The notes: generated by a model not told the origin, from the letters alone. Positions 36,167 through 48,526 are shown, counted from the stretch's first letter. The stretch: 64,000 nt of DNA from Enterobacteria phage vB_EcoM_IME281 (MH051913), one strand, 5' to 3'. Numbers and translations are program-made.

Positions 36167-36190
36167 CAAACCAACCACATGGAAATCAAA

Positions 36191-38913: not shown

Positions 38914-38943
38914 AGGCCCTTCCGAAAGGTTGGGCCTTTTTTT
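38914..38943 (+). terminator. Intrinsic terminator (aggccc…gggcct + TTTTTTT); copy 1 of a duplicated module
   Basis: Stem followed by T-run; near-identical copy at 39538. Confidence 0.7.
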
Positions 38944-38944
38944 G

Positions 38945-38952
38945 TATAAATA
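38945..38952 (+). promoter_or_regulatory. Late promoter box TATAAATA
   Basis: 27 nt upstream of the ATG at 38979. Confidence 0.55.
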
Positions 38953-38978: not shown

Positions 38979-39533
38979 ATGAAACTTTTAAAATATTTGA
39001 GTTGGATTCTGTTGGTCCCACTAGATTTTATCTCTATGGTTCTAGCCGTTATCCTTGCGCCTTTTGTGGTTCCTTTTCATAATAAAAAGACTGGTAAATT
39101 GCCATACGGTTTTGATTGGATGATGACATACGATAATCCAATTGACGGCGATAAAGGTCATATTAAACGTTGGGCTAAAATCAGGAAAATGCCTGGTGGT
39201 GTTTATCTCCAGAGAGTAGCTTGGCTATGGCGAAATAAAGCTTATAACTTTGCTTATCATAAACTAGGCCGTGATTGTAGCTCGGAATTCCATTATCGTG
39301 GTAATCCTGACGTAGAATCAGGTTCTCCTGATAAAGCTCACCATGGTTGGTTGTGGATGTGGAATGATGACGCCTGGGGTGTATTTGCTTCAGTTCCTTA
39401 TCTTAAGGTCGGCGGAATCACATTTTACCTTCGCGTGTACTGTGGCTGGAAGCTTAAGAGTCTTTTGTCTCGTAAAATCCCTAAAGCTATGTTGGCCTTC
39501 CACGTGAACCCGTTCCGGTTCTACAAGAACTGA
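38979..39533 (+). CDS. Late-promoter-driven protein with N-terminal transmembrane anchor, Trp-rich C-terminal domain
   Basis: 184 aa; N-terminal hydrophobic helix LSWILLVPLDFISMVLAVILAPFVVPF. Confidence 0.5.
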   Translation: MKLLKYLSWILLVPLDFISMVLAVILAPFVVPFHNKKTGKLPYGFDWMMTYDNPIDGDKGHIKRWAKIRKMPGGVYLQRVAWLWRNKAYNFAYHKLGRDCSSEFHYRGNPDVESGSPDKAHHGWLWMWNDDAWGVFASVPYLKVGGITFYLRVYCGWKLKSLLSRKIPKAMLAFHVNPFRFYKN

Positions 39534-39537
39534 TTTA

Positions 39538-39565
39538 CGGCCCTTCCGAAAGGTTGGGCCTTTTT
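39538..39565 (+). terminator. Intrinsic terminator, copy 2 (ggccc-ttccgaaaggtt-gggcc + TTTTT)
   Basis: Same sequence as the 38914 terminator. Confidence 0.7.
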
Positions 39566-39566
39566 G

Positions 39567-39574
39567 TATAAATA
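39567..39574 (+). promoter_or_regulatory. Late promoter box TATAAATA
   Basis: 29 nt upstream of the ATG at 39603. Confidence 0.55.
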
Positions 39575-39602
39575 GATAAGTTAATTAACACAGGAAACAA
39601 TA

Positions 39603-40220
39603 ATGAAAACTTACAATGAATTTTTGAACGAAAGCGTTCTGAATGAAGCCGGCGTGCGCATGACTAAAGATATGTGGCAAGCTGCTTATGATAAAATTTC
39701 CGGGACTAAAACCACTACCGAGTTCTTTAAAAACGTTTATGATATGTATGGTTTTGATACTAGTAGCCAGAAAGAATATTACAAAGCTTCCAAAGCTTTT
39801 AAAGATATCGTAGCCGGTGGCTCTACTAAGCCTGCTAAACCTGCTAAAGCTCCTGTTGCTAAACCTGCGGCTCAGCCCAAAGTTGCAGCACCGAAACCTA
39901 CACCTAAACCAGAACCTGTAAAAGAAGCTCCTAAATCTAAAATCAAGTTTGACACCAGCACTATAGTTAAAAAATATAACCAACTGGCTTCTTTAGTTTC
40001 TGAAATCGAATCTGAAACTAAACACCTTGTTCGTGAATTCAACGCTCTTCGTAACGGTCAACACATTAACAACCTGGATACCCCAGACCTGTATCGTCTC
40101 TATCTGACGGTTGAAGGCCTTAAGTATACCCAGCCTATGCGCGAAGAAATCAATAACAAACTTCGCCAAGCGGGCCGCATTGCTGGTGACGCAGCACAGT
40201 TCGAAAAGACTCGTAAATAA
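39603..40220 (+). CDS. CTS-bearing lysine-rich protein with Pro/Ala/Lys linker (IPIII-like candidate internal protein)
   Basis: 205 aa; N-terminal MKTYNEFLNESVL; KPAKPAKAPVAKPAAQPKVAAPKPTPKPEP linker; late promoter upstream. Confidence 0.55.
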   Translation: MKTYNEFLNESVLNEAGVRMTKDMWQAAYDKISGTKTTTEFFKNVYDMYGFDTSSQKEYYKASKAFKDIVAGGSTKPAKPAKAPVAKPAAQPKVAAPKPTPKPEPVKEAPKSKIKFDTSTIVKKYNQLASLVSEIESETKHLVREFNALRNGQHINNLDTPDLYRLYLTVEGLKYTQPMREEINNKLRQAGRIAGDAAQFEKTRK

Positions 40221-40664: not shown

Positions 40665-41063
40665 ATGAATATCGAAGATAAAGAAATGCAAGAGTTGTAT
40701 AATTCATTAACGCCTGAACAACAAAAAGCTGCCAAAGAATTAGAGAAAGCTCTTGCTTTCAACTTGGCAAAAACTGATTGGGCTGCCATGTATGAAGAAA
40801 AAACTAGATTAGAACTTGAAGCTGCTGAGAGAAATGAATGGATTGTCGAAACCAAGATTTCTGATGGTGGTTGCTCTGTTGAGGTGTCAGCTGTAGTTAA
40901 AGGCACTCATGGCGAAAAATCATGGGGTTGGCATAATGAAGCAAACAAACATATTGTTCTCTCAACGTCAAAAACTTATGGCCAAAGGGCTCCTGTATCC
41001 AAAGCTATTATTAAGCAAGCTCAATGGGAAGCCAATGAAATCTGCCTCGCAAAAATGAAATAA
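40665..41063 (+). CDS. Hypothetical protein
   Basis: 132 aa; GAGGAG SD. Confidence 0.5.
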   Translation: MNIEDKEMQELYNSLTPEQQKAAKELEKALAFNLAKTDWAAMYEEKTRLELEAAERNEWIVETKISDGGCSVEVSAVVKGTHGEKSWGWHNEANKHIVLSTSKTYGQRAPVSKAIIKQAQWEANEICLAKMK

Positions 41064-41066
41064 AAT

Positions 41067-41103
41067 GTTTACATCCCTCAGAGGACAGGGTATAATGTCC
41101 TCA
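41067..41103 (+). promoter_or_regulatory. PeSL-like early promoter (GTTTAC -35, TATAAT inside gaggaca…tgtcctc stem)
   Basis: gtttacatccctcagaggacagggtataatgtcctc. Confidence 0.55.
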
Positions 41104-41138
41104 TGGATTATAAATCTTAATCAACTGAAGGAAATACT

Positions 41139-41732
41139 ATGAACACTTTAAAGAAAATCGTTGAATTCATCCGTTCTAAACTGGGTACTGCAATGGCTCA
41201 GAACCTGTCAATCGAAGACCAATACACCAAAGCTGCTTCTACCCTGATTGATAAGATTACTGAACTCCAGACTGCTCATGTTAAGTCCGTGAATGAAGAA
41301 AAACGTATTCGTGCGTTGGCTAATGAAAAAGACCAGCTTGCTGCTTCTAAAGAACGTGAAATTCGTAAACTGATTGCCGAAGGCGCTGATGTCCAGGTAC
41401 ATGCTAAACTTGGCCTCCTTTATCGTCGTACAGCTACTCAGCTTCGTAAGAAAGCCGATGATTATATCGAAATGCGTAATGAAATTAAACTGAAGGTCAA
41501 GGAACTTGATGACTCTCGTCAAGAACTGGCTGTTAAGCTCGAGTACATCCGTGAAACTCGTAATATGGCTGCCCTTGGTATTGCTACTGCCGATGATGTT
41601 GTTGAAATCGCTGCACTGACTAAGATTGATATTGAAGATACCCTGCTGCGTGTAGAAACGTTTAAAGGCCCACAAGTTGGAATGGATACGACTTCTGCCG
41701 ATATCGACGACTACATTAATTCACTTAAGTAA
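41139..41732 (+). CDS. Coiled-coil protein (possible PspA/IM30-like fold; weak)
   Basis: 197 aa, almost entirely heptad-like helical sequence. Confidence 0.45.
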
Positions 41733-41739
41733 TGTTACT

Positions 41740-41762
41740 GGGAGACTTCGGTCTCCCTATTT
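41740..41762 (+). terminator. UUCG hairpin terminator (gggagac-ttcg-gtctccc)
   Basis: Same stem as at 3619 and 40225. Confidence 0.6.
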
Positions 41763-41780
41763 GGAGGAGAGGAGAATATT

Positions 41781-42323
41781 ATGAGTTTATATGACGACCT
41801 GATATCAAATATTGATTGGTTTAAGCATAGTGGTCTTTCACATGAAACTAATTCAGTTCTTTATAGAATTCGCCAAGACTTAGGTTATTCCAATGATTTC
41901 TTAAGTCGAACAAATAGCCGTGGATACACTAGCAAATTACCTTTTATCTTTGCTTTAGCTGAGGACCTTTCTTTTGCAGAAGCTTTAGAAATTATTGACT
42001 TAAATCTGGGTATTCAACGAGTGGAATTCGCTGGATTATGCTATTCAGTATACGCTTTAAATGAACCGAGTGATTGTAAACAGCTTGTTGATGCTGACGA
42101 TGATTACCATTTAGTATGCTATTTGATGTTAGAAAATGGTGACCACTTTGGTATGGTCGACCGCCGCCCGAGTTATTCGGATATTAAAAATTACGATAAA
42201 GATGAGCTTATTATTTTGGCTAATGAGTATACATCAGAGATTCGAAAACAACAACGGAAGCTTAATCGTTTTATTGCTGAATGTCGCGAATACGCTAAAG
42301 AGGTTCAAAATGGAGCGGCCTAG
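41781..42323 (+). CDS. Hypothetical protein (C-terminal …NRFIAECRE motif)
   Basis: 180 aa ORF. Confidence 0.5.
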   Translation: MSLYDDLISNIDWFKHSGLSHETNSVLYRIRQDLGYSNDFLSRTNSRGYTSKLPFIFALAEDLSFAEALEIIDLNLGIQRVEFAGLCYSVYALNEPSDCKQLVDADDDYHLVCYLMLENGDHFGMVDRRPSYSDIKNYDKDELIILANEYTSEIRKQQRKLNRFIAECREYAKEVQNGAA

Positions 42324-42663
42324 TCTTTCATCACATGTTTATCAATTGACTGAATATGATATTGGTGCCAATTTATTATTAGGGATTGTTACAGCCATGC
42401 TTGGTGGCTTAATTGGCCTGGTAATGACCGTGGTTATGGCTGTAATCGAAGGAGTCACACCTATTGAGATGGGGTTCTATATGATAATCGCTCCGGCAGT
42501 TGTGGCCTATTTTATCCCTGTTGTGTATGATATTTGCCATACAAACGCTTTGAATGCTCCAATCCGTAAGAGATATGCTTTAGAGATGGCTAATTATAAT
42601 GAGTATGTAAATCAAACTAAACGTAATGACCTTGAAATCTTTATTAAGGAATGTAAATCATGA
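42310..42663 (+). CDS. Membrane protein with C-terminal …FIKECKS motif
   Basis: Start at MERPSLSS with AAAGAGG SD; two hydrophobic helices. Confidence 0.45.
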   Translation: MERPSLSSHVYQLTEYDIGANLLLGIVTAMLGGLIGLVMTVVMAVIEGVTPIEMGFYMIIAPAVVAYFIPVVYDICHTNALNAPIRKRYALEMANYNEYVNQTKRNDLEIFIKECKS

Positions 42664-42950
42664 ATAAAATTGAAATTGAAATCCCAGAACACAACGACGA
42701 GAAATCTGCAGAAAAGGCTATCTATGCTCTTCTGAATAAAGTGAATACCATCGAACATGAATGTGAAGCTATTGCCGATAAGTATGGTATCCAATTCGGT
42801 ACCGGTGATTATGGTTCAGGCCGTACATATTATCCTGTCGGTTATGAATGCTCCCAGTGGTTTAAAGATGAAATTGAAAACAACGGCGGTGAAGTTGAAA
42901 ATGGTGTCGTTACAGTTGGTGCTTGGGTCTCCTCTTCGGCAATGTGCTAA
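42660..42950 (+). CDS. Array member 1: small acidic protein ending …AWVSSSAMC
   Basis: ATGA-coupled start; 96 aa. Confidence 0.55.
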   Translation: MNKIEIEIPEHNDEKSAEKAIYALLNKVNTIEHECEAIADKYGIQFGTGDYGSGRTYYPVGYECSQWFKDEIENNGGEVENGVVTVGAWVSSSAMC

Positions 42951-42959
42951 GGAAACGCT

Positions 42960-43241
42960 ATGATGAATGATTACCGTAAAAATAAAGAGCTGGCTGAAGC
43001 AGTAAATGATATTCATAAAGCTATTCGTCGTGCTGAGGAAATTGCAGACAAATATGAGACTCATTTTAATATATACCCTGCTCGCGGTATGGGCGGTGAC
43101 TATTATTCTCCTGGCGCCCTGAAAGCCGACCTTGCTCACTGGGAAGAATACGGTGAAGCTCAGTACGCTATTGTAAACCAACATGATTACACTACCAGCC
43201 TAGAAAATGGTGGATGGGTATCCTCTTCTTCTGAATGTTAA
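42960..43241 (+). CDS. Array member 2: small acidic protein ending …GWVSSSSEC
   Basis: 93 aa; TAAGGA SD overlapping upstream stop. Confidence 0.55.
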   Translation: MMNDYRKNKELAEAVNDIHKAIRRAEEIADKYETHFNIYPARGMGGDYYSPGALKADLAHWEEYGEAQYAIVNQHDYTTSLENGGWVSSSSEC

Positions 43242-43250
43242 GGAATTATT

Positions 43251-43448
43251 ATGTCTCGTGAACTAGATTGTGCAATCCGTACTGCCGCGGCGGCTATTGA
43301 AAACGTTATCCAGATTTGCAAAGAAGAACGTGAAGAAGCTGATATCTATATCGATGGTCAACGTGACCTGGAACGTCATATCACGCTTTATAACGGTTGT
43401 ATTACTATTAGTGGTACCTCTTGGGTGTCCTCCTCTTACGAATGCTAA
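43251..43448 (+). CDS. Array member 3: small acidic protein ending …SWVSSSYEC
   Basis: 65 aa. Confidence 0.55.
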   Translation: MSRELDCAIRTAAAAIENVIQICKEEREEADIYIDGQRDLERHITLYNGCITISGTSWVSSSYEC

Positions 43449-43457
43449 GGAAATAAA

Positions 43458-43667
43458 ATGACTATTGATGAAATTGAAAAACAAATCCGTGAATTAGTAC
43501 GTAAAGGTCAGTCCGTGGCTGACGAAACAGGTCAGCACTTCCACGCCGGCGGCGAAGAATATATTCCAGCTTCTAGTCCGGAATATGGCGATTACGAATG
43601 GGCCCGTGATGATTACGGTATTCCTGAAGGTGAAGGTTTCTGGTTTAGCTCCTCTATGTCTTGCTAA
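43458..43667 (+). CDS. Array member 4: small acidic protein ending …FWFSSSMSC
   Basis: 69 aa. Confidence 0.55.
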   Translation: MTIDEIEKQIRELVRKGQSVADETGQHFHAGGEEYIPASSPEYGDYEWARDDYGIPEGEGFWFSSSMSC

Positions 43668-43677
43668 GGTGATAAAA

Positions 43678-43902
43678 ATGACTGATATTAATGAATTAGA
43701 AAAAGCGGCACTTGAACTGGCTGCACTGTATAAGAAAGTAAAAGATATGGCTTCTGCTCAGGATTTTGGTGTTGAGCTCGACGATTATGACGGTGAAGTT
43801 CGTCTCGAAGATTGGCTGAATAGTTCTTGTTATGGTGAAGAAGCTGGTCGTACCTTCGTTGCTCGTGCCGATGGTAAAATCTGGTACCCAAGCTCATGCT
43901 AA
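43678..43902 (+). CDS. Array member 5: small acidic protein ending …IWYPSSC
   Basis: Start at MTDINEL (the ORF-track upstream start lies in another gene); 74 aa. Confidence 0.5.
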   Translation: MTDINELEKAALELAALYKKVKDMASAQDFGVELDDYDGEVRLEDWLNSSCYGEEAGRTFVARADGKIWYPSSC

Positions 43903-44123
43903 AATTGAAAAAACGATACATTCGTAAAATAAATGGTCTTCGCGATTATGCCAAAGGTTGGCCACTAAGTATTATTATGGCTGATAGACACCCACGTTAT
44001 AATACTGAGATGACTTATTACAAAAAGTACGATTCATATTGTCGGTCTAAAGCGGGTCGTTTAGATGGTTCTTATGAGGACTATTTTGGTAAAAAACCTA
44101 CTCGTGTTTCGTTAGGAAAATAA
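43896..44123 (+). CDS. Small basic hypothetical protein
   Basis: 75 aa ORF. Confidence 0.4.
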   Translation: MLKLKKRYIRKINGLRDYAKGWPLSIIMADRHPRYNTEMTYYKKYDSYCRSKAGRLDGSYEDYFGKKPTRVSLGK

Positions 44124-44153
44124 TTTAACCACATGGATGTGATAGGAGGACTT

Positions 44154-44483
44154 ATGCATAAAGATTCAGTATTCAAATATCTTTTGAAAACAGATAAAGA
44201 ATTCTATATGAATGGGCAAGCTTTCTTGTTCGTTCGTGGTAAACGTGAGATGTTTTACAAATGCGACCTCTCAATGCACCATCATATGTATCACACCCAT
44301 GGCGAGCCTATACTGGGGTTCTCTGGTGACGAAACTAGACGTATAGCTATGTACTACGACCATTTTAAGCTCAATGATTGTGGTGACAACGCTTTGGTCT
44401 GGAATCCATCTTGGCGTCGTTGGGATACGGTAGACAACGATAAATTATTTTTAGAATATTGCAGAAGTGATGTACAGCTCTAA
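44154..44483 (+). CDS. Hypothetical His-rich protein
   Basis: AGGAGG SD; 109 aa. Confidence 0.45.
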   Translation: MHKDSVFKYLLKTDKEFYMNGQAFLFVRGKREMFYKCDLSMHHHMYHTHGEPILGFSGDETRRIAMYYDHFKLNDCGDNALVWNPSWRRWDTVDNDKLFLEYCRSDVQL

Positions 44484-44526
44484 AAATACGTGTTACTATT
44501 ACCCTACACAAACATGAGGAGAACAT

Positions 44527-44766
44527 ATGTGGTATTACGCTCCGATGTCCGATAAGTCTAATGAACCGGTACGCATTACTCGTGCCAAGTTTAAAAAGAT
44601 TTATGGCTTTGCTTATAAGAAGTCTGATTACGGTGTTCGTTTTGAAGATGCTCACTGTATCAATGATCCTTATGCAGAAGAAATCTCTAATGAGATAATT
44701 CCTATCGTTGAGAGTAATTCCAATGATATGTGGGAATTACATAATACTTACGTTGCCGAAATTTAA
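44527..44766 (+). CDS. Hypothetical protein
   Basis: 79 aa; GAGGAG SD. Confidence 0.45.
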   Translation: MWYYAPMSDKSNEPVRITRAKFKKIYGFAYKKSDYGVRFEDAHCINDPYAEEISNEIIPIVESNSNDMWELHNTYVAEI

Positions 44767-44785
44767 GTTTACTGAGGAAAATATT

Positions 44786-45745
44786 ATGATGCTAGTTATT
44801 GGTTCTCGTGCACTGCACCACGCAGGTCTGATTGAAAATAAGTATATCGAAAATTCTGATTGGGATTTCATTGCCGACCAAGGCTCATGGAACCACTTTA
44901 AAGCTCGGATGTTCGGCGCCCATGTACACGTTGACAATCCTGATGTTCAGGCTTTCAAATGTATGCATAATGGTAAAGAAACCTATTTCGAAGCTTATAT
45001 CGTCCGTGCCCTGACTAATGTACGAGAAATTACCGGTGAGCTCCAAGATGAAGACTACACCTCAAGCTATCGTCTCCTGAAATATGCTGAAAATCATATT
45101 AAAAAGGACCGTCTTACAGGTTTCTATTGGGCGACGCCTGATATCTGTCTGGCTATCAAAACCTCTCATCGTTTCCTGAAGAATAATCCGTTCTTCTTGA
45201 AAACTATGTCCCACATCAAATACCTTCGTAATAAAGGTATCACCCTGAATGAAGAACTCCGGGAAATTATGCTGCAACGTCAAAAAGAAACGTTGAGCTA
45301 TTCCCATCCTAAATTGGATGTAAACAAATCATCGTTCTTTAATGATACCATTTATACGCTAGACCATGACTCCATCCATGAAGCAGTAGCATTGGCAGGG
45401 CGTCCTGCATATACCTTTTATATGAAGGAAGGTTCTGAAGTCATGACCTCTCGTGAGAAGTTCGAGGCTTTGCCTGAAGCTATTAAATTGGCTGGTGTGT
45501 ATGAAGAAACTTGTGTCCTGGCACTAGAACGTTCACAGGTTCCTAATGACTTCAATATTTCACCATCATTAAGTTTCTATATGGCTCTTGAGAAAGTGTG
45601 TACCTCAATCACTTCAGGTTGGTTCCGTGAGTACGCCTGGGAAAACTACCAAGCTGTGGTTAATATGTACAAGACTTTAGGTGAAAACGACTACATCAAA
45701 CGATTCCAAGACAACCATCATTTAATTCGTCCTTTCGAAAAATAA
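44786..45745 (+). CDS. Hypothetical protein, possible nucleotidyltransferase fold
   Basis: 319 aa; N-terminal LVIGSRALHHAG…SDWDF resembles a G[SG]…D-x-D motif with a long spacer. Confidence 0.4.
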   Translation: MMLVIGSRALHHAGLIENKYIENSDWDFIADQGSWNHFKARMFGAHVHVDNPDVQAFKCMHNGKETYFEAYIVRALTNVREITGELQDEDYTSSYRLLKYAENHIKKDRLTGFYWATPDICLAIKTSHRFLKNNPFFLKTMSHIKYLRNKGITLNEELREIMLQRQKETLSYSHPKLDVNKSSFFNDTIYTLDHDSIHEAVALAGRPAYTFYMKEGSEVMTSREKFEALPEAIKLAGVYEETCVLALERSQVPNDFNISPSLSFYMALEKVCTSITSGWFREYAWENYQAVVNMYKTLGENDYIKRFQDNHHLIRPFEK

Positions 45746-45757
45746 TTGCACAAAACA

Positions 45758-45799
45758 GTGTACAAGGTCTATAGGTGTGATACTATAGACCTATCAAAA
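45758..45799 (+). promoter_or_regulatory. PeSL-like early promoter cassette (GTGTAC -35 variant)
   Basis: gtgtacaaggtctataggtgtgatactatagacctatcaa; stem ggtctatag/ctatagacc. Confidence 0.55.
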
Positions 45800-45823
45800 C
45801 AACAGAGTGAAATGGAGAATAAA

Positions 45824-46039
45824 ATGAAACTTTCTAACCAAGCAATCAACATGTTAAACGAAGTTCGTGCAGCTGGTGCTAAATGCCTGATGGTTAACAC
45901 TCGTGACGGTGACCTTCGTCAAGCATTTGGTGAATTGAAATCTGCTGACCTGGTTAAATGTTCAGTTGGTATTGGTAACGCACTTCGTGTATCCTTATCC
46001 CCTAAAGGTAAAATGTACTTTTCAACAAAAAGTAAGTGA
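45824..46039 (+). CDS. Small hypothetical protein
   Basis: GGAG SD; 71 aa. Confidence 0.45.
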   Translation: MKLSNQAINMLNEVRAAGAKCLMVNTRDGDLRQAFGELKSADLVKCSVGIGNALRVSLSPKGKMYFSTKSK

Positions 46040-46049
46040 GGAAAATATT

Positions 46050-46739
46050 ATGAACGGCCCGAAAACTTTTAATTCTCAAGCTCGTGCAGTCGGTGGTTTT
46101 GCTCAAGATATCAGTAATGATATGATTAAAAATGAGCCTATGTTCTTTAATTGTGATGCTTATTTTGCTCATAAACACGGCGGTCCTATTACTCGTAGCT
46201 TTATTGAAAACCTGCCTGAAGATTGGCAATGTGGCCCTGATATTGTATTTGATTCCCGTGTACACATGTTAATGCCTGGCTGGTACCCTGCAATTCCAGG
46301 CTTCCACCATGATGATGTACCACGCCCGGATATTCCGGTCGGTCAACACTTTATTACCGCAGGGCAACCTGATTATGATAATCCTCGTTACCATTCTGAA
46401 CATATTCTTGGTCTTGTTAACGCTGATGTGTGTCCTACCCATTTTGCAACCGGAACTGCACAGTTCAGTCGGATTCCTGAAGGCGAACTTATCTATCGCC
46501 AGTGGCATAAAGAAGTTCTGGAAAAAATTGAGTCCAATGAATTAACCAAGTGGGATGCTCCTGACCGCACGTTACTCCAGTTTGATTGGCAGACATGGCA
46601 TACAGGTTCTCGTGCAGTAAGTAATGGGTGGCGCTGGTTTGGTCGTGTGTCTCGTAATACAGACCGTGTTAAAAAGATTACAAATGAAATCCGCGTTAAT
46701 GCTCAAGTATATCTGGAATTCCCTATGGAGGGCTGGTAA
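46050..46739 (+). CDS. Hypothetical protein with His/Asp clusters (possible metal-dependent enzyme)
   Basis: 229 aa; FHHDD…HSEH. Confidence 0.45.
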   Translation: MNGPKTFNSQARAVGGFAQDISNDMIKNEPMFFNCDAYFAHKHGGPITRSFIENLPEDWQCGPDIVFDSRVHMLMPGWYPAIPGFHHDDVPRPDIPVGQHFITAGQPDYDNPRYHSEHILGLVNADVCPTHFATGTAQFSRIPEGELIYRQWHKEVLEKIESNELTKWDAPDRTLLQFDWQTWHTGSRAVSNGWRWFGRVSRNTDRVKKITNEIRVNAQVYLEFPMEGW

Positions 46740-47326
46740 TGGCCCTTTATGAACCTGGTTGTATGGGTATTGATACAAACTTCATCCGTCGGTCGGAAAA
46801 TGCTGGAATTATTATCCCAAGTGGTGAGACTATGATTATTAAAAAGTCCTGGCGAAATATAGATGACGGTGATGAAGGAATTTCAGCCAGTACAATAGAT
46901 TGGTCAGGTTGTACTGCCGAAATGAAACAGCTTTTAATTGAGGAATATAAAATGGGCTATATCGTAAACGGCTGGCAAGCGGAACCACATAAAGAACAGA
47001 CTCCAGACCCATTGATTTGTTATAGCAAAAAATACGGCTTCCGTGCATGGAGTGATGAATACGACAAATTGGTGAGTTCTAGATTCTATGTTTGGATGGG
47101 TATATTATTTTTCCCACTCCTAGGGTTTTTCCTGACAACAGATAATGACCTGCCTATTTGTGTATTCGCTTCAGCGATGTCTGCTGCTATCTTAGGTCTT
47201 ATCGCATCATTTTTATGGACATCGGTTATCGAAGTACCTTTTCGTATTTCTAAAGTTAAAAAGGTATATGATGATATCACTAAGAAAAATACATTAAACT
47301 CTTTTATTAAGGAATGTCGTAAATGA
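46739..47326 (+). CDS. Membrane protein with C-terminal …FIKECRK motif
   Basis: 195 aa; two C-terminal hydrophobic helices. Confidence 0.5.
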   Translation: MALYEPGCMGIDTNFIRRSENAGIIIPSGETMIIKKSWRNIDDGDEGISASTIDWSGCTAEMKQLLIEEYKMGYIVNGWQAEPHKEQTPDPLICYSKKYGFRAWSDEYDKLVSSRFYVWMGILFFPLLGFFLTTDNDLPICVFASAMSAAILGLIASFLWTSVIEVPFRISKVKKVYDDITKKNTLNSFIKECRK

Positions 47327-47559
47327 GCATTGCAATTTATATTAAATCTGAGTCATGTGATTCATATCTATATTCCTATGATACCGGAACATCAGAAGAG
47401 AAAATTAAAGAAGACTTAGAAAGCGATATGGATATGTTCTGTCCTATTGGTGACTATATGCTTCAAGTGTCTGATAGTGAAAGTCCATCATCAGAAAATA
47501 GACTTCAAATTATTATGCAAGATATTTTTAAACAATCATGGGAACGAGACGATGGGTAA
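47323..47559 (+). CDS. Small acidic hypothetical protein
   Basis: 78 aa; ATGA coupling. Confidence 0.45.
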   Translation: MSIAIYIKSESCDSYLYSYDTGTSEEKIKEDLESDMDMFCPIGDYMLQVSDSESPSSENRLQIIMQDIFKQSWERDDG

Positions 47560-48001
47560 GAAAGCTAAGGAATTATCGGCAGGTATTTTATTCATGACCG
47601 TTGATAAAGAACTGGTCATGGGCCGTGTAACAGGCTCTCGTAATCCAGAGAACATGCGTCATAAATGGGACATTCCTAAAGGTCATGTCGAACCAGGCGA
47701 AGAGCCTATTCAAGCGGCAATGCGTGAAACCGAAGAAGAGATTGGATTCACAGCATACGATCCTGCATTCCTGAAAGACCTAGGTGAGTTCAAATATTCA
47801 AGCAATAAGAATCTACATCTGTTCTTATATACAGTGCCTGTGGAACACGAGCAGTTCAAGGATTGCAAATGTACGGCTTACCATACGTTCCCTGATGGTC
47901 GTACTATTCCTGAATTCGATGCGTTCGCCTTGATTAAACGTCCGCAATGGGAATATGTCATGGGTAAGTCGATGTTTAAGGTTTTAGATTCGCTCTTTTG
48001 A
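47552..48001 (+). CDS. nudE: Nudix hydrolase
   Basis: Nudix box GHVEPGEEPIQAAMRETEEEIG; adjacent to e as in T4. Confidence 0.85.
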   Translation: MGKKAKELSAGILFMTVDKELVMGRVTGSRNPENMRHKWDIPKGHVEPGEEPIQAAMRETEEEIGFTAYDPAFLKDLGEFKYSSNKNLHLFLYTVPVEHEQFKDCKCTAYHTFPDGRTIPEFDAFALIKRPQWEYVMGKSMFKVLDSLF

Positions 48002-48031
48002 TATAAATACCTCCTATACTCAGGAGGTATT

Positions 48032-48526
48032 ATGGATATTTTTGATATGTTACGTCAAGACGAAGGTCTTGATTTAAATCTTTATAAAGACACTGAAGGT
48101 TATTGGACTATTGGTATTGGCCAGTTAGTTACCAAGAACCCATCTAAAGATGTTGCTCGTGCTGAACTTGATAAGCTTATGGGCCGAGTTTGTAATGGTC
48201 GTATTACTATGGCTGAAGCCGAACAACTCTTTAACCGATCGGTTGAAAATGCTCGTAGAGCTATTCTGCGTAATCCTAAATTGAAACCTGTTTACGATGT
48301 ATTGGACGAAGTTCGTCGTTGTGCTTTAATTAACATGGTCTTCCAAATGGGTGAAGCAGGTGTAGCAGGGTTCACTAACTCTTTACGTATGCTCCAACAG
48401 AAACGTTGGAACGATGCGGCAGTTAACCTGGCTCAATCCCGTTGGTATAAACAAACCCCTAATCGTGCTAAGCGCGTGATTTCAACATTTAAAACAGGTA
48501 CTTGGAAAGCATATGAAAACTTATAA
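48032..48526 (+). CDS. e: Endolysin (T4 lysozyme family)
   Basis: 164 aa; about 75% identical to recalled T4 lysozyme; Glu11, Asp20, Thr26 present. Confidence 0.95.

What the first reader, a model, noticed from the sequence alone, without database searches (positions are those of the whole stretch)
42640..47326. Recurrent C-terminal FI(K/A)EC(K/R) motif coinciding with a conserved gene-junction sequence
Three proteins end in …NRFIAECRE… (41781-42323), …EIFIKECKS (42310-42663) and …NSFIKECRK (46739-47326); the latter two are membrane proteins. At the nucleotide level the motif is TTTATTAAGGAATGT, which contains the AAGGA SD for the immediately overlapping downstream gene. Together with the Cys-stop-TAAGGA junctions of the W-x-SSS-x-C array, this suggests conserved junction modules at which small-gene cassettes recombine, leaving a peptide footprint.
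Basis: seen in the sequence. Interest (0 to 1): 0.45.

Follow-up and report, generated by a model that had tools for sequence, protein, structure and literature searches.

The report
Shared C-terminal FIxxCR tail motif
A short peptide tail (Phe-Ile-x-x-Cys-Arg) ends many otherwise dissimilar small early proteins in one variable region of T4-like phages; selection acts on the amino acids, not on a DNA recombination signal, and its function is unknown.

Summary
The window is a JS98-like (Dhakavirus) T4-type phage. The three genes are an e.5-like gene (41781-42323), an e.3-like two-helix membrane gene (42310-42663) and e.2 (46739-47326).

The motif is far more widespread than three copies. [FW][VIL]xxC[RK] lies within the last 22 residues in 115 unique instances across about 38 T4-like loci, in at least 23 sequence clusters. 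It is roughly 100-fold enriched at C-termini. In T4 positions 1-76,000 it occurs only in the e.2-e.5 cluster.

Selection acts on amino acids. Cys, Arg, Phe and Ile use all their synonymous codons. The AAGGA positions (residues 3-4) are the least conserved. The exact 15-mer shared by two window genes is not significant as DNA.

Within the Dhakavirus/Gaprivervirus relatives compared, the tail-plus-junction forms a conserved island next to swapped membrane-domain blocks. Decayed genes in two phages keep the tail just ahead of the next gene's start codon. However, junction conservation is general in this region, and the true repeated DNA modules here are PeSL-type promoters.

Function is unknown. 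My best guess is a shared cytoplasmic docking helix.

The parts
41781..42323 (+). orf131-type gene (180 aa, soluble), a divergent counterpart of T4 e.5. It ends ...LNRFIAECREYAKEVQNGAA and overlaps the next gene by 14 nt.
   Evidence: ORF. JS98 orf131 annotation. phrog_8788. hhalign against the e.5 family gives 93% probability and E = 3.6e-7 with the tail, and E = 9e-4 in the same register without it.
42270..42287 (+). Motif copy 1: FIAECR (TTTATTGCTGAATGTCGC), with no AAGGA.
42310..42663 (+). orf130-type gene (117 aa). It has two transmembrane helices and a roughly 40-residue helical cytoplasmic tail. It belongs to the same family as T4 e.3.
   Evidence: phrog_2330, E = 1.9e-44; T4 e.3 hits the same family. 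Alignment A1. AlphaFold helices 18-47 and 51-116, mean pLDDT 78.
42313..42560 (+). Hypervariable, swapped block that encodes the N-terminus and both transmembrane helices of orf130.
   Evidence: Nucleotide identity falls to 0.37-0.67 in L005, L006, L016 and L017, while the flanks are 0.9-1.0.
42565..42670 (+). Conserved nucleotide island: the last 32 codons of orf130, the ATGA junction and the first codons of the next gene.
   Evidence: 83-100% identity in 30-nt windows in all 7 relatives, and 100% at 42640-42669. Synonymous-codon identity 220/233 = 0.94 against a background of 0.77, Fisher p = 3e-12; the comparisons are not phylogenetically independent.
42640..42663 (+). Motif copy 2: FIKECK-S-stop. 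It holds the exact 15-mer (42640-42654), AAGGA (42646-42650) and the ATGA stop/start overlap (42660-42663).
   Evidence: The RNA around it is less structured than shuffled sequence (z = +1.64).
44133..44483 (+). orf124-type soluble gene that ends ...DKLFLEYCRSDVQL. This is a relaxed fourth motif copy (FLEYCR, 44448-44465).
   Evidence: phrog_9796. The Kanagawavirus gene at the corresponding position (L013 8321-8599), which shares the VWNP segment, ends ...SFIQMCRGNQNVS.
46739..47326 (+). e.2 (195 aa): a soluble N-terminal domain, two transmembrane helices and a cytoplasmic tail.
   Evidence: phrog_2203, E = 1.5e-70. PF26896 is recorded on its homologues. Alignment A2 shows F, I, E, C, R and K invariant at the tail down to 38% identity.
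46975..47295 (+). Swapped block that encodes the e.2 membrane domain and most of the tail.
   Evidence: No detectable nucleotide similarity in L006 and L008. The left flank is about 100% identical in L006 and 73-93% in L008. Similarity resumes at about 47300, where the motif begins.
47303..47326 (+). Motif copy 3: FIKECR-K-stop. It holds the exact 15-mer (47303-47317), AAGGA (47309-47313) and the ATGA overlap (47323-47326).
   Evidence: Most relatives have GAG (Glu) instead of AAG, and TGC instead of TGT.
42660..43902 (+). Context: a tandem array of five paralogues that end in W-x-(S/P)SS-x-x-C. Three of the four inter-gene junctions read TG[CT]-TAAGGAA-N5-ATG.
   Evidence: phrog_899. The same array occurs in moha and ZX14.

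Best explanation
The recurring FI(K/A)EC(K/R) is the core of a conserved C-terminal peptide. Its consensus is hydrophobic(-3), x, x, F/W(0), I/V(+1), x, x, C(+4), R/K(+5), followed by a usually basic residue.

This peptide terminates a large and fast-diverging set of small early proteins encoded between e.6 and nudE in T-even-type phages. The set includes the e.5-like soluble proteins, e.2, e.3, other two-helix membrane proteins and orf124-like soluble proteins. e.4 carries a shifted variant (FVKESRC).

Shown here: selection acts on the amino acids. The motif lies at the end of a predicted helix. Its conserved residues fall on one helical face.

Inferred: the tail is cytoplasmic and serves as a shared docking or oligomerisation element. 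It would bring these proteins to a common partner or to each other.

These genes are packed head to tail without promoters or terminators. The last codons of each gene therefore also carry the ribosome-binding site of the next, overlapping gene. The free positions of the motif (residues 3-4, or 6-7) are used to spell that site. In this window that gives Lys-Glu = AAGGAA in two genes, and hence an identical 15-mer.

The membrane-domain segments upstream of the tail exist as deeply divergent alleles that are exchanged between phages. The conserved tail and junction is where homology resumes. It may therefore secondarily act as a crossover patch, but it is not a dedicated recombination signal.
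For: Positional specificity:
- There are 3 of 3 strict matches at C-termini in the whole window.
- There are 48 tail matches against 3 internal matches in 13 representative loci, about 100-fold enrichment, Fisher p = 8e-38, all on the coding strand.
- In T4 positions 1-76,000 the only matches among 331 ORFs are in e.2, e.3 and e.5.

Breadth:
- There are 115 unique instances.
- With the tails removed, the proteins fall into at least 23 BLASTP clusters, soluble and two-helix membrane.
- These span several PHROG families: 8788, 2607, 2330, 2203, 9798 and 9796. e.4 (2604) carries the shifted variant FVKESRC.

Amino-acid-level selection:
- Codon counts are Cys TGT 45 / TGC 41; Arg CGT 26, AGA 23, AGG 17, CGC 8, CGA 7; Phe TTT 57 / TTC 25; Ile ATT 44, ATC 15, ATA 10.
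- Positions 3-4 take more than a dozen residue types.
- F, C and R are among only 9 invariant columns in e.5 relatives at 20-47% identity.
- The tail is invariant in the orf130 and e.2 families down to 38-51% identity.
- Four of the five full-length representatives found in a scan of 1.84 billion proteins keep it. The fifth has Val in place of Cys.

Helix:
- The AlphaFold model runs one helix from residue 51 to 116, through the motif.
- Positions -3, 0, +1, +4 and +5 span about 140 degrees of a helical wheel (my calculation).

Coupling:
- The next ATG overlaps the stop as ATGA in 28 of 88 junctions and lies within about 45 nt of the motif in most.
- The SD starts at +5 to +7, +15 to +18 or +23 to +30 relative to the motif.
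- No promoter or terminator signal above chance lies between 41.8 and 45.7 kb.
- The junction RNA is unstructured.

Allele swaps.
Against: No function is known for any member. There are no solved-structure relatives and no literature hit for the peptide. The docking role is therefore inference only.

The soluble e.5-like protein could not be modelled (pLDDT 41.5). It is unknown whether the motif helix is buried in a fold or exposed.

Excess synonymous conservation in the orf130 and orf131 tails within the Dhakavirus/Gaprivervirus relatives compared (0.94 and 0.90 against 0.77) shows that some nucleotide-level constraint, or recombinational homogenisation, operates as well.

It is unresolved whether all carrier families share ancestry or acquired the tail by junction duplication. 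BLASTP between orf130 and e.2 gives E = 5e-5, driven largely by the tail.
Confidence: 0.6

Rival explanations
1. One reading: the motif-encoding DNA is a conserved junction module. It would be a homology patch at which small-gene cassettes recombine, and the peptide is merely its translated footprint.
For: There is a conserved nucleotide island at 42565-42670 next to variable blocks, with reduced synonymous divergence there and in the orf131 tail.

Similarity in the e.2 allele swap resumes at the motif.

The tail is retained ahead of the next gene after the carrier gene has decayed, in moha L012 8064-8141 and in T4 e.2.

The same tail abuts different downstream genes in different genera.

The T4 e.5/e.4 and e.4/e.3 junctions share AAATTTGTTAAGGAAT followed by ATG-NNN-AAGCC. 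This suggests the duplication unit included the upstream tail.
Against: There is complete synonymous codon turnover at every conserved residue across paralogues and genera.

The two window copies share only 15 nt, which is no more than chance repeats in this window. T4 recombination is described as needing small (<50 bp) patches of homology (PMC2839356); whether 15 nt suffices for efficient exchange is untested.

The e.2 tail shows no excess synonymous conservation.

Translation-initiation-region conservation exceeding gene-body conservation is general for genes between 39 and 50 kb.

The swapped units are intragenic membrane-domain blocks, not whole genes.
Confidence: 0.18
2. The peptide is a by-product of nucleotide constraints on the translation-initiation region of the overlapping downstream gene. 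Those constraints are the SD, unstructured RNA and coupling by termination-reinitiation.
For: AAGGA lies 9 nt before the overlapping ATG at both window junctions.

Unusual residues at the free positions spell an SD in other genera, for example Lys-Gly = AAAGGA and Arg-Gly = AGAGGT or CGAGGA.

The junction RNA is less structured than shuffled sequence.

The tail is retained ahead of downstream genes after the upstream gene has decayed.
Against: The conserved residues (F, I/V, C, R) are not those that encode the SD, and their codons vary freely.

The SD register relative to the motif varies over about 25 nt and is sometimes entirely downstream of it.

In the e.5 and orf131 family the motif lies 5-15 codons before the stop.

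Other overlapping junctions in the same operon lack the motif.
Confidence: 0.1
3. Chance recurrence of a short peptide or 15-mer in an AT-rich genome.
For: The DNA 15-mer alone is within chance expectation.
Against: There are 3 of 3 strict peptide matches at C-termini, roughly 100-fold tail enrichment with p = 8e-38, and conservation across at least 6 genera.
Confidence: 0.01

Closest known systems
PeSL elements (promoter-early stem-loop cassettes) of T4-type phages (Arbiol et al. 2010, PMC2839356; Comeau et al. 2014, PMC4122927)
   Same: Both are short conserved sequences at gene boundaries in hyperplastic regions. Both flank variable genes, end in an SD and a start codon, and are proposed as homology patches for modular shuffling.
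   Different: PeSLs are intergenic, about 100 bp long, and contain a sigma-70-type early promoter plus a stem-loop. The FIKEC junctions are coding, overlap the next gene (ATGA), show no promoter or terminator signal above chance and are unstructured. Genuine PeSL-like promoters do occur in this window, at 7 other sites.
Capsid-targeting sequence (MKTYQEFIAE) of T4 internal proteins, a conserved terminal tag on hypervariable proteins (my own knowledge of the T4 literature)
   Same: Both are short invariant terminal peptides shared by otherwise unrelated or hypervariable proteins. Both sit beside a conserved expression signal, so the gene body can be replaced while the tag-plus-junction persists. 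The window itself shows this for IP-type genes: three share 26 nt at 36188, 36414 and 49429, and the gene bodies at 39603 and 48513 are replaced in relatives while their translation-initiation regions stay at 0.7-1.0 identity.
   Different: The present tag is C-terminal, not N-terminal. It has no L-x-E protease site, it occurs largely on membrane proteins, and its function is untested.
Translationally coupled overlapping genes (ATGA stop/start overlap with the SD inside the upstream coding sequence)
   Same: The stop/start overlap, the SD 9 nt upstream inside the upstream gene and the lack of an intervening promoter or terminator all match.
   Different: Coupling explains the AAGGA, but not the conservation of F, I, C and R with free codon choice.
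T4 e.2, e.3, e.4 and e.5 gene families (PHROGs 2203, 2330, 2604, 2607; Pfam PF26896 for e.2)
   Same: The window genes are members or divergent counterparts of these families.
   Different: I found no description of the shared C-terminal motif across these families. The PHROGs treat them as separate families, none with an assigned molecular function (2203 is labelled only 'membrane protein').

Membership tests
PeSL (promoter-early stem-loop) cassette | Intergenic location between the stop of one gene and the start of the next | tested here: not met
   The stop and start codons overlap (ATGA) at 42660-42663 and 47323-47326. The orf131/orf130 pair overlaps by 14 nt.
PeSL (promoter-early stem-loop) cassette | Sigma-70-type early promoter (-35 and -10) | tested here: not met
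   The promoter scan of 41000-48100 found 20 sites, against 22.8 expected from shuffles. Only a 9-of-12 match overlaps 42632-42661.
PeSL (promoter-early stem-loop) cassette | Stable stem-loop | tested here: not met
   Folding z-scores are +1.64 and +1.05 at the two FIKEC junctions. A hairpin at the orf131/orf130 junction (z = -2.24) is not conserved in 9 relatives.
Translationally coupled overlapping gene pair | Stop/start overlap with an SD 5-10 nt upstream, inside the upstream coding sequence | tested here: met
   AAGGA lies at 42646-42650 and 47309-47313, 9 nt before the ATG of an ATGA overlap.
Translationally coupled overlapping gene pair | Downstream translation depends on upstream translation | not testable with these tools
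   This needs reporter fusions with premature stop codons in the upstream gene.
T4 e.3 family (phrog_2330) | Profile match over the full length, plus two transmembrane helices and a C-terminal tail | tested here: met
   The window gene 42310-42660 scores E = 1.9e-44 over profile positions 1-122. T4 e.3 scores E = 2.9e-57 against the same family.
T4 e.2 family (phrog_2203 / PF26896) | Profile match | tested here: met
   E = 1.5e-70. PF26896 is precomputed on all 30 homologues. The local Pfam copy gave no hit.
T4 e.5 family (phrog_2607) | Homology beyond the shared tail | tested here: inconclusive
   BLASTP aligns only the 15-residue tail, and the PHROG families differ. hhalign gives 93% probability with the tail, and E = 9e-4 with 22% probability in the same register without it. 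The genomic position is the same, between e.6 and the e.3/e.4-like gene.
Capsid-targeting-sequence type terminal tag | N-terminal MKTYQEFIAE-like peptide with an L-x-E cleavage site | tested here: not met
   The motif is C-terminal and has no L-x-E. This is an analogy only.

The most novel reading that the evidence does not exclude
FIxxCR is a C-terminal addressing tag, a counterpart of the N-terminal capsid-targeting sequence of the internal proteins. It would recruit a rapidly diversifying repertoire of soluble and two-helix membrane early proteins to one common partner or membrane complex. The tag-encoding DNA, together with the embedded ribosome-binding site, would also serve as the homology patch that lets phages exchange the variable (specificity) domains as cassettes. 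That would couple a protein-level address to a DNA-level shuffling system.
Probability: 0.2. Interest if true: 0.65.

Novelty: new variant of a known kind. Interest (0 to 1): 0.42.

Why it matters
T4 genes e.2-e.5 and dozens of neighbouring orphan genes have had no known function or known relationship to each other. A single invariant tail that unites at least 23 sequence clusters gives a concrete experimental handle. The tail peptide can be used as bait, and point mutants can be compared with synonymously recoded versions.

The finding also suggests that these proteins act through a common partner. The membrane domains exist as deeply divergent, exchanged alleles between conserved flanks. That pattern resembles a specificity determinant under diversifying selection, such as exclusion, defence or counter-defence.

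The case also shows how a protein-level tag plus an embedded ribosome-binding site can look like a DNA recombination module.

Tried and rejected
- **Collection scan for the exact 15-mer.** It was uninformative, because the word is too short.
- **AlphaFold model of the e.5-like protein.** With a shallow alignment (at least 79% identity) the model reached pLDDT 41.5 and was unusable beyond a suggestion of a C-terminal helix. No fold search was attempted.
- **Coupling hairpin at the orf131/orf130 junction.** A hairpin pairs the FIA codons with the orf130 start codon (-23 kcal/mol, z = -2.24). It looked like a translational-coupling structure, but the consensus fold over 9 relatives is only -3.95 kcal/mol with no covariation. 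I rejected it as a conserved element.
- **Family and structure databases.** Pfam gave nothing for the motif carriers and only DUFs for neighbouring genes. The solved-structure searches found no relative.
- **Literature.** Searches for e.3, e.4 and e.5 and for the peptide strings found nothing relevant.
- **nudE as a locus anchor.** A single-protein query found only 8 loci. An e.6 alignment worked better and found 33 loci.
- **RegB cleavage sites.** I considered whether the junction SD sequences might be RegB targets (GGAG). The window junctions read AAGGAA, and relatives have GAGGAA, so neither contains GGAG.
- **Nascent-peptide stalling signal.** I considered and rejected this because the distance from motif to stop varies from 0 to 15 codons.

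Full report
**What the window is.** A megablast of 41700-47600 matches Dhakavirus (JS98-like) T4-type phages: AnYang at 97%, IME08 at 94% and JS98 at 91%. Using the JS98 and AnYang annotations, the three genes in the finding can be named.
- 41781-42323 is JS98 orf131. It sits between e.6 and the next gene.
- 42310-42663 is JS98 orf130.
- 46739-47326 is e.2. It is followed by an RB69-ORF130c-like gene (47323-47559), then nudE and the lysozyme gene e.

**Checking the observation.** TTTATTAAGGAATGT occurs exactly twice, at 42640 and 47303. In both places AAGGA lies 9 nt upstream of an ATG that overlaps the stop codon as ATGA. The third copy, TTTATTGCTGAATGT at 42270, has no AAGGA, and its downstream gene uses a separate AAAGAGG.

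As DNA, the 15-mer repeat is unremarkable. Twelve of 100 shuffles give at least 2 matches at up to 2 mismatches. The window also contains about ten other unrelated exact repeats of 15-17 nt.

As a peptide it is highly non-random. F[VIL].[ED]C[RK] occurs three times in the six-frame translation of all 64 kb, each time 1-11 codons before the stop of a real + strand gene.

**The motif is much bigger than the finding.** In T4 itself the same tail appears repeatedly.
- e.5 ends ...EKFVKECREYVKAITIPSK.
- e.4 ends ...KFVKESRCKSQS.
- e.3 ends ...EFVIDCRKIK.
- An out-of-frame remnant of e.2 ends ...NFITECRKLK immediately before the nudE start codon.

I anchored on the conserved e.6 protein and collected 33 IMG/VR loci. 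To these I added T4, moha (Mosigvirus), ZX14 (Kanagawavirus) and pKp20 (Jiaodavirus). A nudE-anchored locus from IME-CF2 (Pseudotevenvirus) has no tail match under the [CS]-allowing regex.

The relaxed pattern [FW][VIL]xxC[RK], within the last 22 residues, gives 115 unique instances, typically 3-5 genes per phage. In 13 representative loci there are 48 tail matches against 3 internal ones among all ORFs of at least 60 aa on both strands. That is about 100-fold enrichment (Fisher p = 8e-38), and all 48 are on the coding strand. In T4 positions 1-76,000 (331 ORFs of at least 35 aa) the only matches are in e.2, e.3 and e.5. In the e.6-anchored loci, all but one short and probably spurious ORF lie downstream of e.6.

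With the tails removed, the carrier proteins fall into at least 23 BLASTP clusters.
- e.2, which has a soluble N-terminal domain followed by two transmembrane helices.
- e.3/orf130.
- Many other two-helix membrane proteins of 88-136 aa.
- e.5-like and orf131-like soluble proteins.
- orf124-like soluble proteins.

The window's own orf124-type gene (44133-44483) ends ...LFLEYCRSDVQL, which makes it a fourth copy. PHROGs place these proteins in separate families: 8788, 2607, 2330, 2203, 9798 and 9796. e.4, which carries the shifted variant FVKESRC, is in 2604. None has an assigned molecular function; 2203 is labelled only 'membrane protein'.

orf131 and T4 e.5 align by BLASTP only over the 15-residue tail. 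Profile-profile comparison aligns about 100 columns at 93% probability. Without the tail it still aligns in the same register, at E = 9e-4. orf131 is therefore probably a very divergent e.5.

**Protein-level or DNA-level conservation?** Across unique instances every conserved residue uses its full set of codons.
- Cys: TGT 45, TGC 41.
- Arg: CGT 26, AGA 23, AGG 17, CGC 8, CGA 7, CGG 1.
- Phe: TTT 57, TTC 25.
- Ile: ATT 44, ATC 15, ATA 10.

Positions 3 and 4, which spell AAGGA in this window, are the least conserved. They take more than a dozen residue types.

Within families the tail is the most conserved part.
- It is invariant in orf130 relatives down to 51% identity and in e.2 relatives down to 38%.
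- F, C and R are among only nine invariant columns in e.5 relatives at 20-47% identity.
- Four of the five full-length e.3-family representatives found in a scan of 1.84 billion proteins keep the motif. The fifth has Val in place of Cys (FIREVR).

An extended pattern emerges. A hydrophobic residue at -3, F at 0, I/V at +1, C at +4 and R at +5 all fall on one face of a helix (my calculation). An AlphaFold model of orf130 (mean pLDDT 78) runs a single helix from the second membrane span through the motif to residue 116. This is the signature of selection on a peptide, not on a DNA word.

**The ribosome-binding site.** These genes are packed without promoters or terminators. Nothing above chance lies between 41.8 and 45.7 kb. 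The next start codon overlaps the stop as ATGA in 28 of 88 junctions, and lies within about 45 nt of the motif in most.

The Shine-Dalgarno (SD) sequence is often written into the free positions of the motif, but in different registers. It can start at +5 to +7 (Lys-Glu AAGGAA, Lys-Gly AAAGGA, Arg-Ser AGGAGC). It can start at +15 to +18 (Arg-Lys AGGAAA, Arg-Gly CGAGGA). It can also start at +23 to +30, beyond the motif.

The junction RNA is less structured than shuffled sequence (z = +1.6 and +1.1), as expected for an open initiation region. Even so, the SD is a passenger on the motif, not its cause.

**What supports the recombination idea.** The tail and junction (42565-42670) is 83-100% identical in 30-nt windows in seven relatives, and 100% at the motif itself. 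Upstream, the block encoding the transmembrane helices (42313-42560) drops to about 40% in four of them. Downstream, the start of the next gene drops to 40-60% in another. Synonymous-codon identity is 0.94 in the orf130 tail and 0.90 in the orf131 tail, against a background of 0.77. These comparisons are not phylogenetically independent.

In e.2, a block of about 320 nt (46975-47295) has no detectable similarity in two relatives. One of them (L006) is about 100% identical on the left flank, and the other (L008) is 73-93% identical there. Similarity resumes at about 47300, where the motif begins. In L006 this is allele replacement, not gradual divergence.

Two 'footprints' exist. In moha, the 98-nt gap before the first W-SSS-C gene holds a decayed e.3-like gene. 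It consists of a 16-codon start fragment and a 25-codon ORF, MISYNELLARRENETIENFIKECRK. It still ends in TTTATTAAGGAATGT...ATGA, overlapping the next start. An intact version is present in L085. The reference T4 e.2 is split in a similar way, while related phages keep an intact 162-aa gene.

**What limits the recombination idea.**
- Translation-initiation regions are more conserved than gene bodies for most genes between 39 and 50 kb. This includes genes whose bodies are entirely replaced, such as the internal-protein genes at 39603 and 48513. The motif junctions are therefore not special in this respect.
- The e.2 tail shows no excess synonymous conservation (0.86, p = 0.11).
- The two window copies share only 15 nt. 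PMC2839356 describes T4 recombination as needing small (<50 bp) patches of homology; whether 15 nt suffices is untested.
- The swapped units are intragenic membrane-domain blocks, not small-gene cassettes.
- Across genera the junction DNA is not conserved. Compare T4 e.3/e.2, TTTGTGATTGATTGCAGGAAAATTAAATGA, with this window.
- A boundary of divergence shows where two alleles become similar again. It does not show where the crossover happened.

**The real repeated DNA modules.** The window contains seven copies of a T4-type early promoter with a conserved core, TGATACTATAGACCTATCAA, and a GTTTAC -35 element. In most copies an inverted repeat encloses the -10 and pairs with the SD, for example CTCCTGTAG...CTACAGGAG, which becomes CTCCAGTAG...CTACTGGAG in another copy. 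These match the published description of PeSL elements (PMC2839356, PMC4122927). The FIKEC junctions fail every PeSL criterion I could test.

**Conclusion.** The finding is a real feature and, as far as I could find, an undescribed one. It is a C-terminal FIxxCR tail shared by a large, locus-restricted and fast-diverging set of T-even early proteins. It is maintained by selection on the peptide, and the ribosome-binding site of the next gene is written into its free positions.

Conserved islands do lie next to swapped blocks, and footprints do exist. As a mechanism it is probably wrong.

The function of the tail is unknown. I favour a shared cytoplasmic docking or oligomerisation helix, which is an inference. 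The closest analogy is the conserved terminal targeting tag of the T4 internal proteins.

Noticed in passing
window 3303, 40303, 45781, 48935, 51223, 55346, 59829: There are seven copies of a T4-type early promoter with a conserved core, TGATACTATAGACCTATCAA, and a GTTTAC -35 element. In most copies an inverted repeat encloses the -10 and pairs with the downstream SD, with a compensatory change between copies. These look like PeSL elements, the known shuffling modules of T4-type phages.
   Followed up: partly
window 38915-38950 and 39539-39575, flanking gene 38979-39533: A DUF7338 gene is flanked on both sides by the same element of about 40 nt: a terminator hairpin (GGCCCTTCCGAAAGGTTGGGCC), a T-run and GTATAAATA (a late-promoter-like sequence). 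The gene body is absent in relatives L004 and L012. It looks like a cassette bounded by direct repeats.
   Followed up: partly
window 42660-43902: This is a tandem array of five small paralogues (65-96 aa, phrog_899). Each ends in W-x-(S/P)SS-x-x-C, with Cys as the last residue. The array is conserved in Mosigvirus and Kanagawavirus, and Ser codons vary, including AGC against TCN. Function is unknown. The Ser/Cys-rich C-terminal core on multiple precursors is faintly reminiscent of modified-peptide precursors, but I found no modifying enzyme.
   Followed up: partly
L003 5492-5652 (T4 67491-67651, minus strand): In the reference T4 genome, e.2 is split. The annotated 103-aa ORF stops inside the membrane domain. 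A 36-codon ORF (MFIEMPWRLRRQQKIFDEKKYAQNLNNFITECRKLK) carrying the tail lies unannotated before nudE. Related phages (L145-L147) have an intact 162-aa gene.
   Followed up: partly
L012 8022-8141 (phage moha): The 'intergenic' 98 nt between the e.4-like gene and the first W-SSS-C gene is a decayed e.3-like gene. A start fragment and the tail are retained, and the membrane domain has been deleted with a frameshift.
   Followed up: yes
window 36188, 36414, 49429 (also 39603 and 48513): Five genes begin MKTY(Q/N)EF..., the internal-protein capsid-targeting sequence. Three share 26 identical nucleotides across the start. The bodies at 39603 and 48513 are replaced in relatives while the start region is kept.
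   Followed up: no
window 44773, 46037, 56693: The 15-mer AGGAAAATATTATGA, an initiation region, is shared by three unrelated genes. Two of them (44773 and 46037) share the longer 17-mer TGAGGAAAATATTATGA.
   Followed up: no
window 40226 and 41741: An identical hairpin, GGAGACTTCGGTCTCC (UUCG loop), follows both the internal-protein-like gene (stop at 40220) and e.6 (stop at 41732). These are probably terminators or RNA-stability elements.
   Followed up: no
window 42266-42318: A stable hairpin (-23 kcal/mol, z = -2.24) pairs the Arg-Phe-Ile codons of orf131 with the start codon of orf130. It is not conserved in relatives that carry the other orf130 allele.
   Followed up: yes
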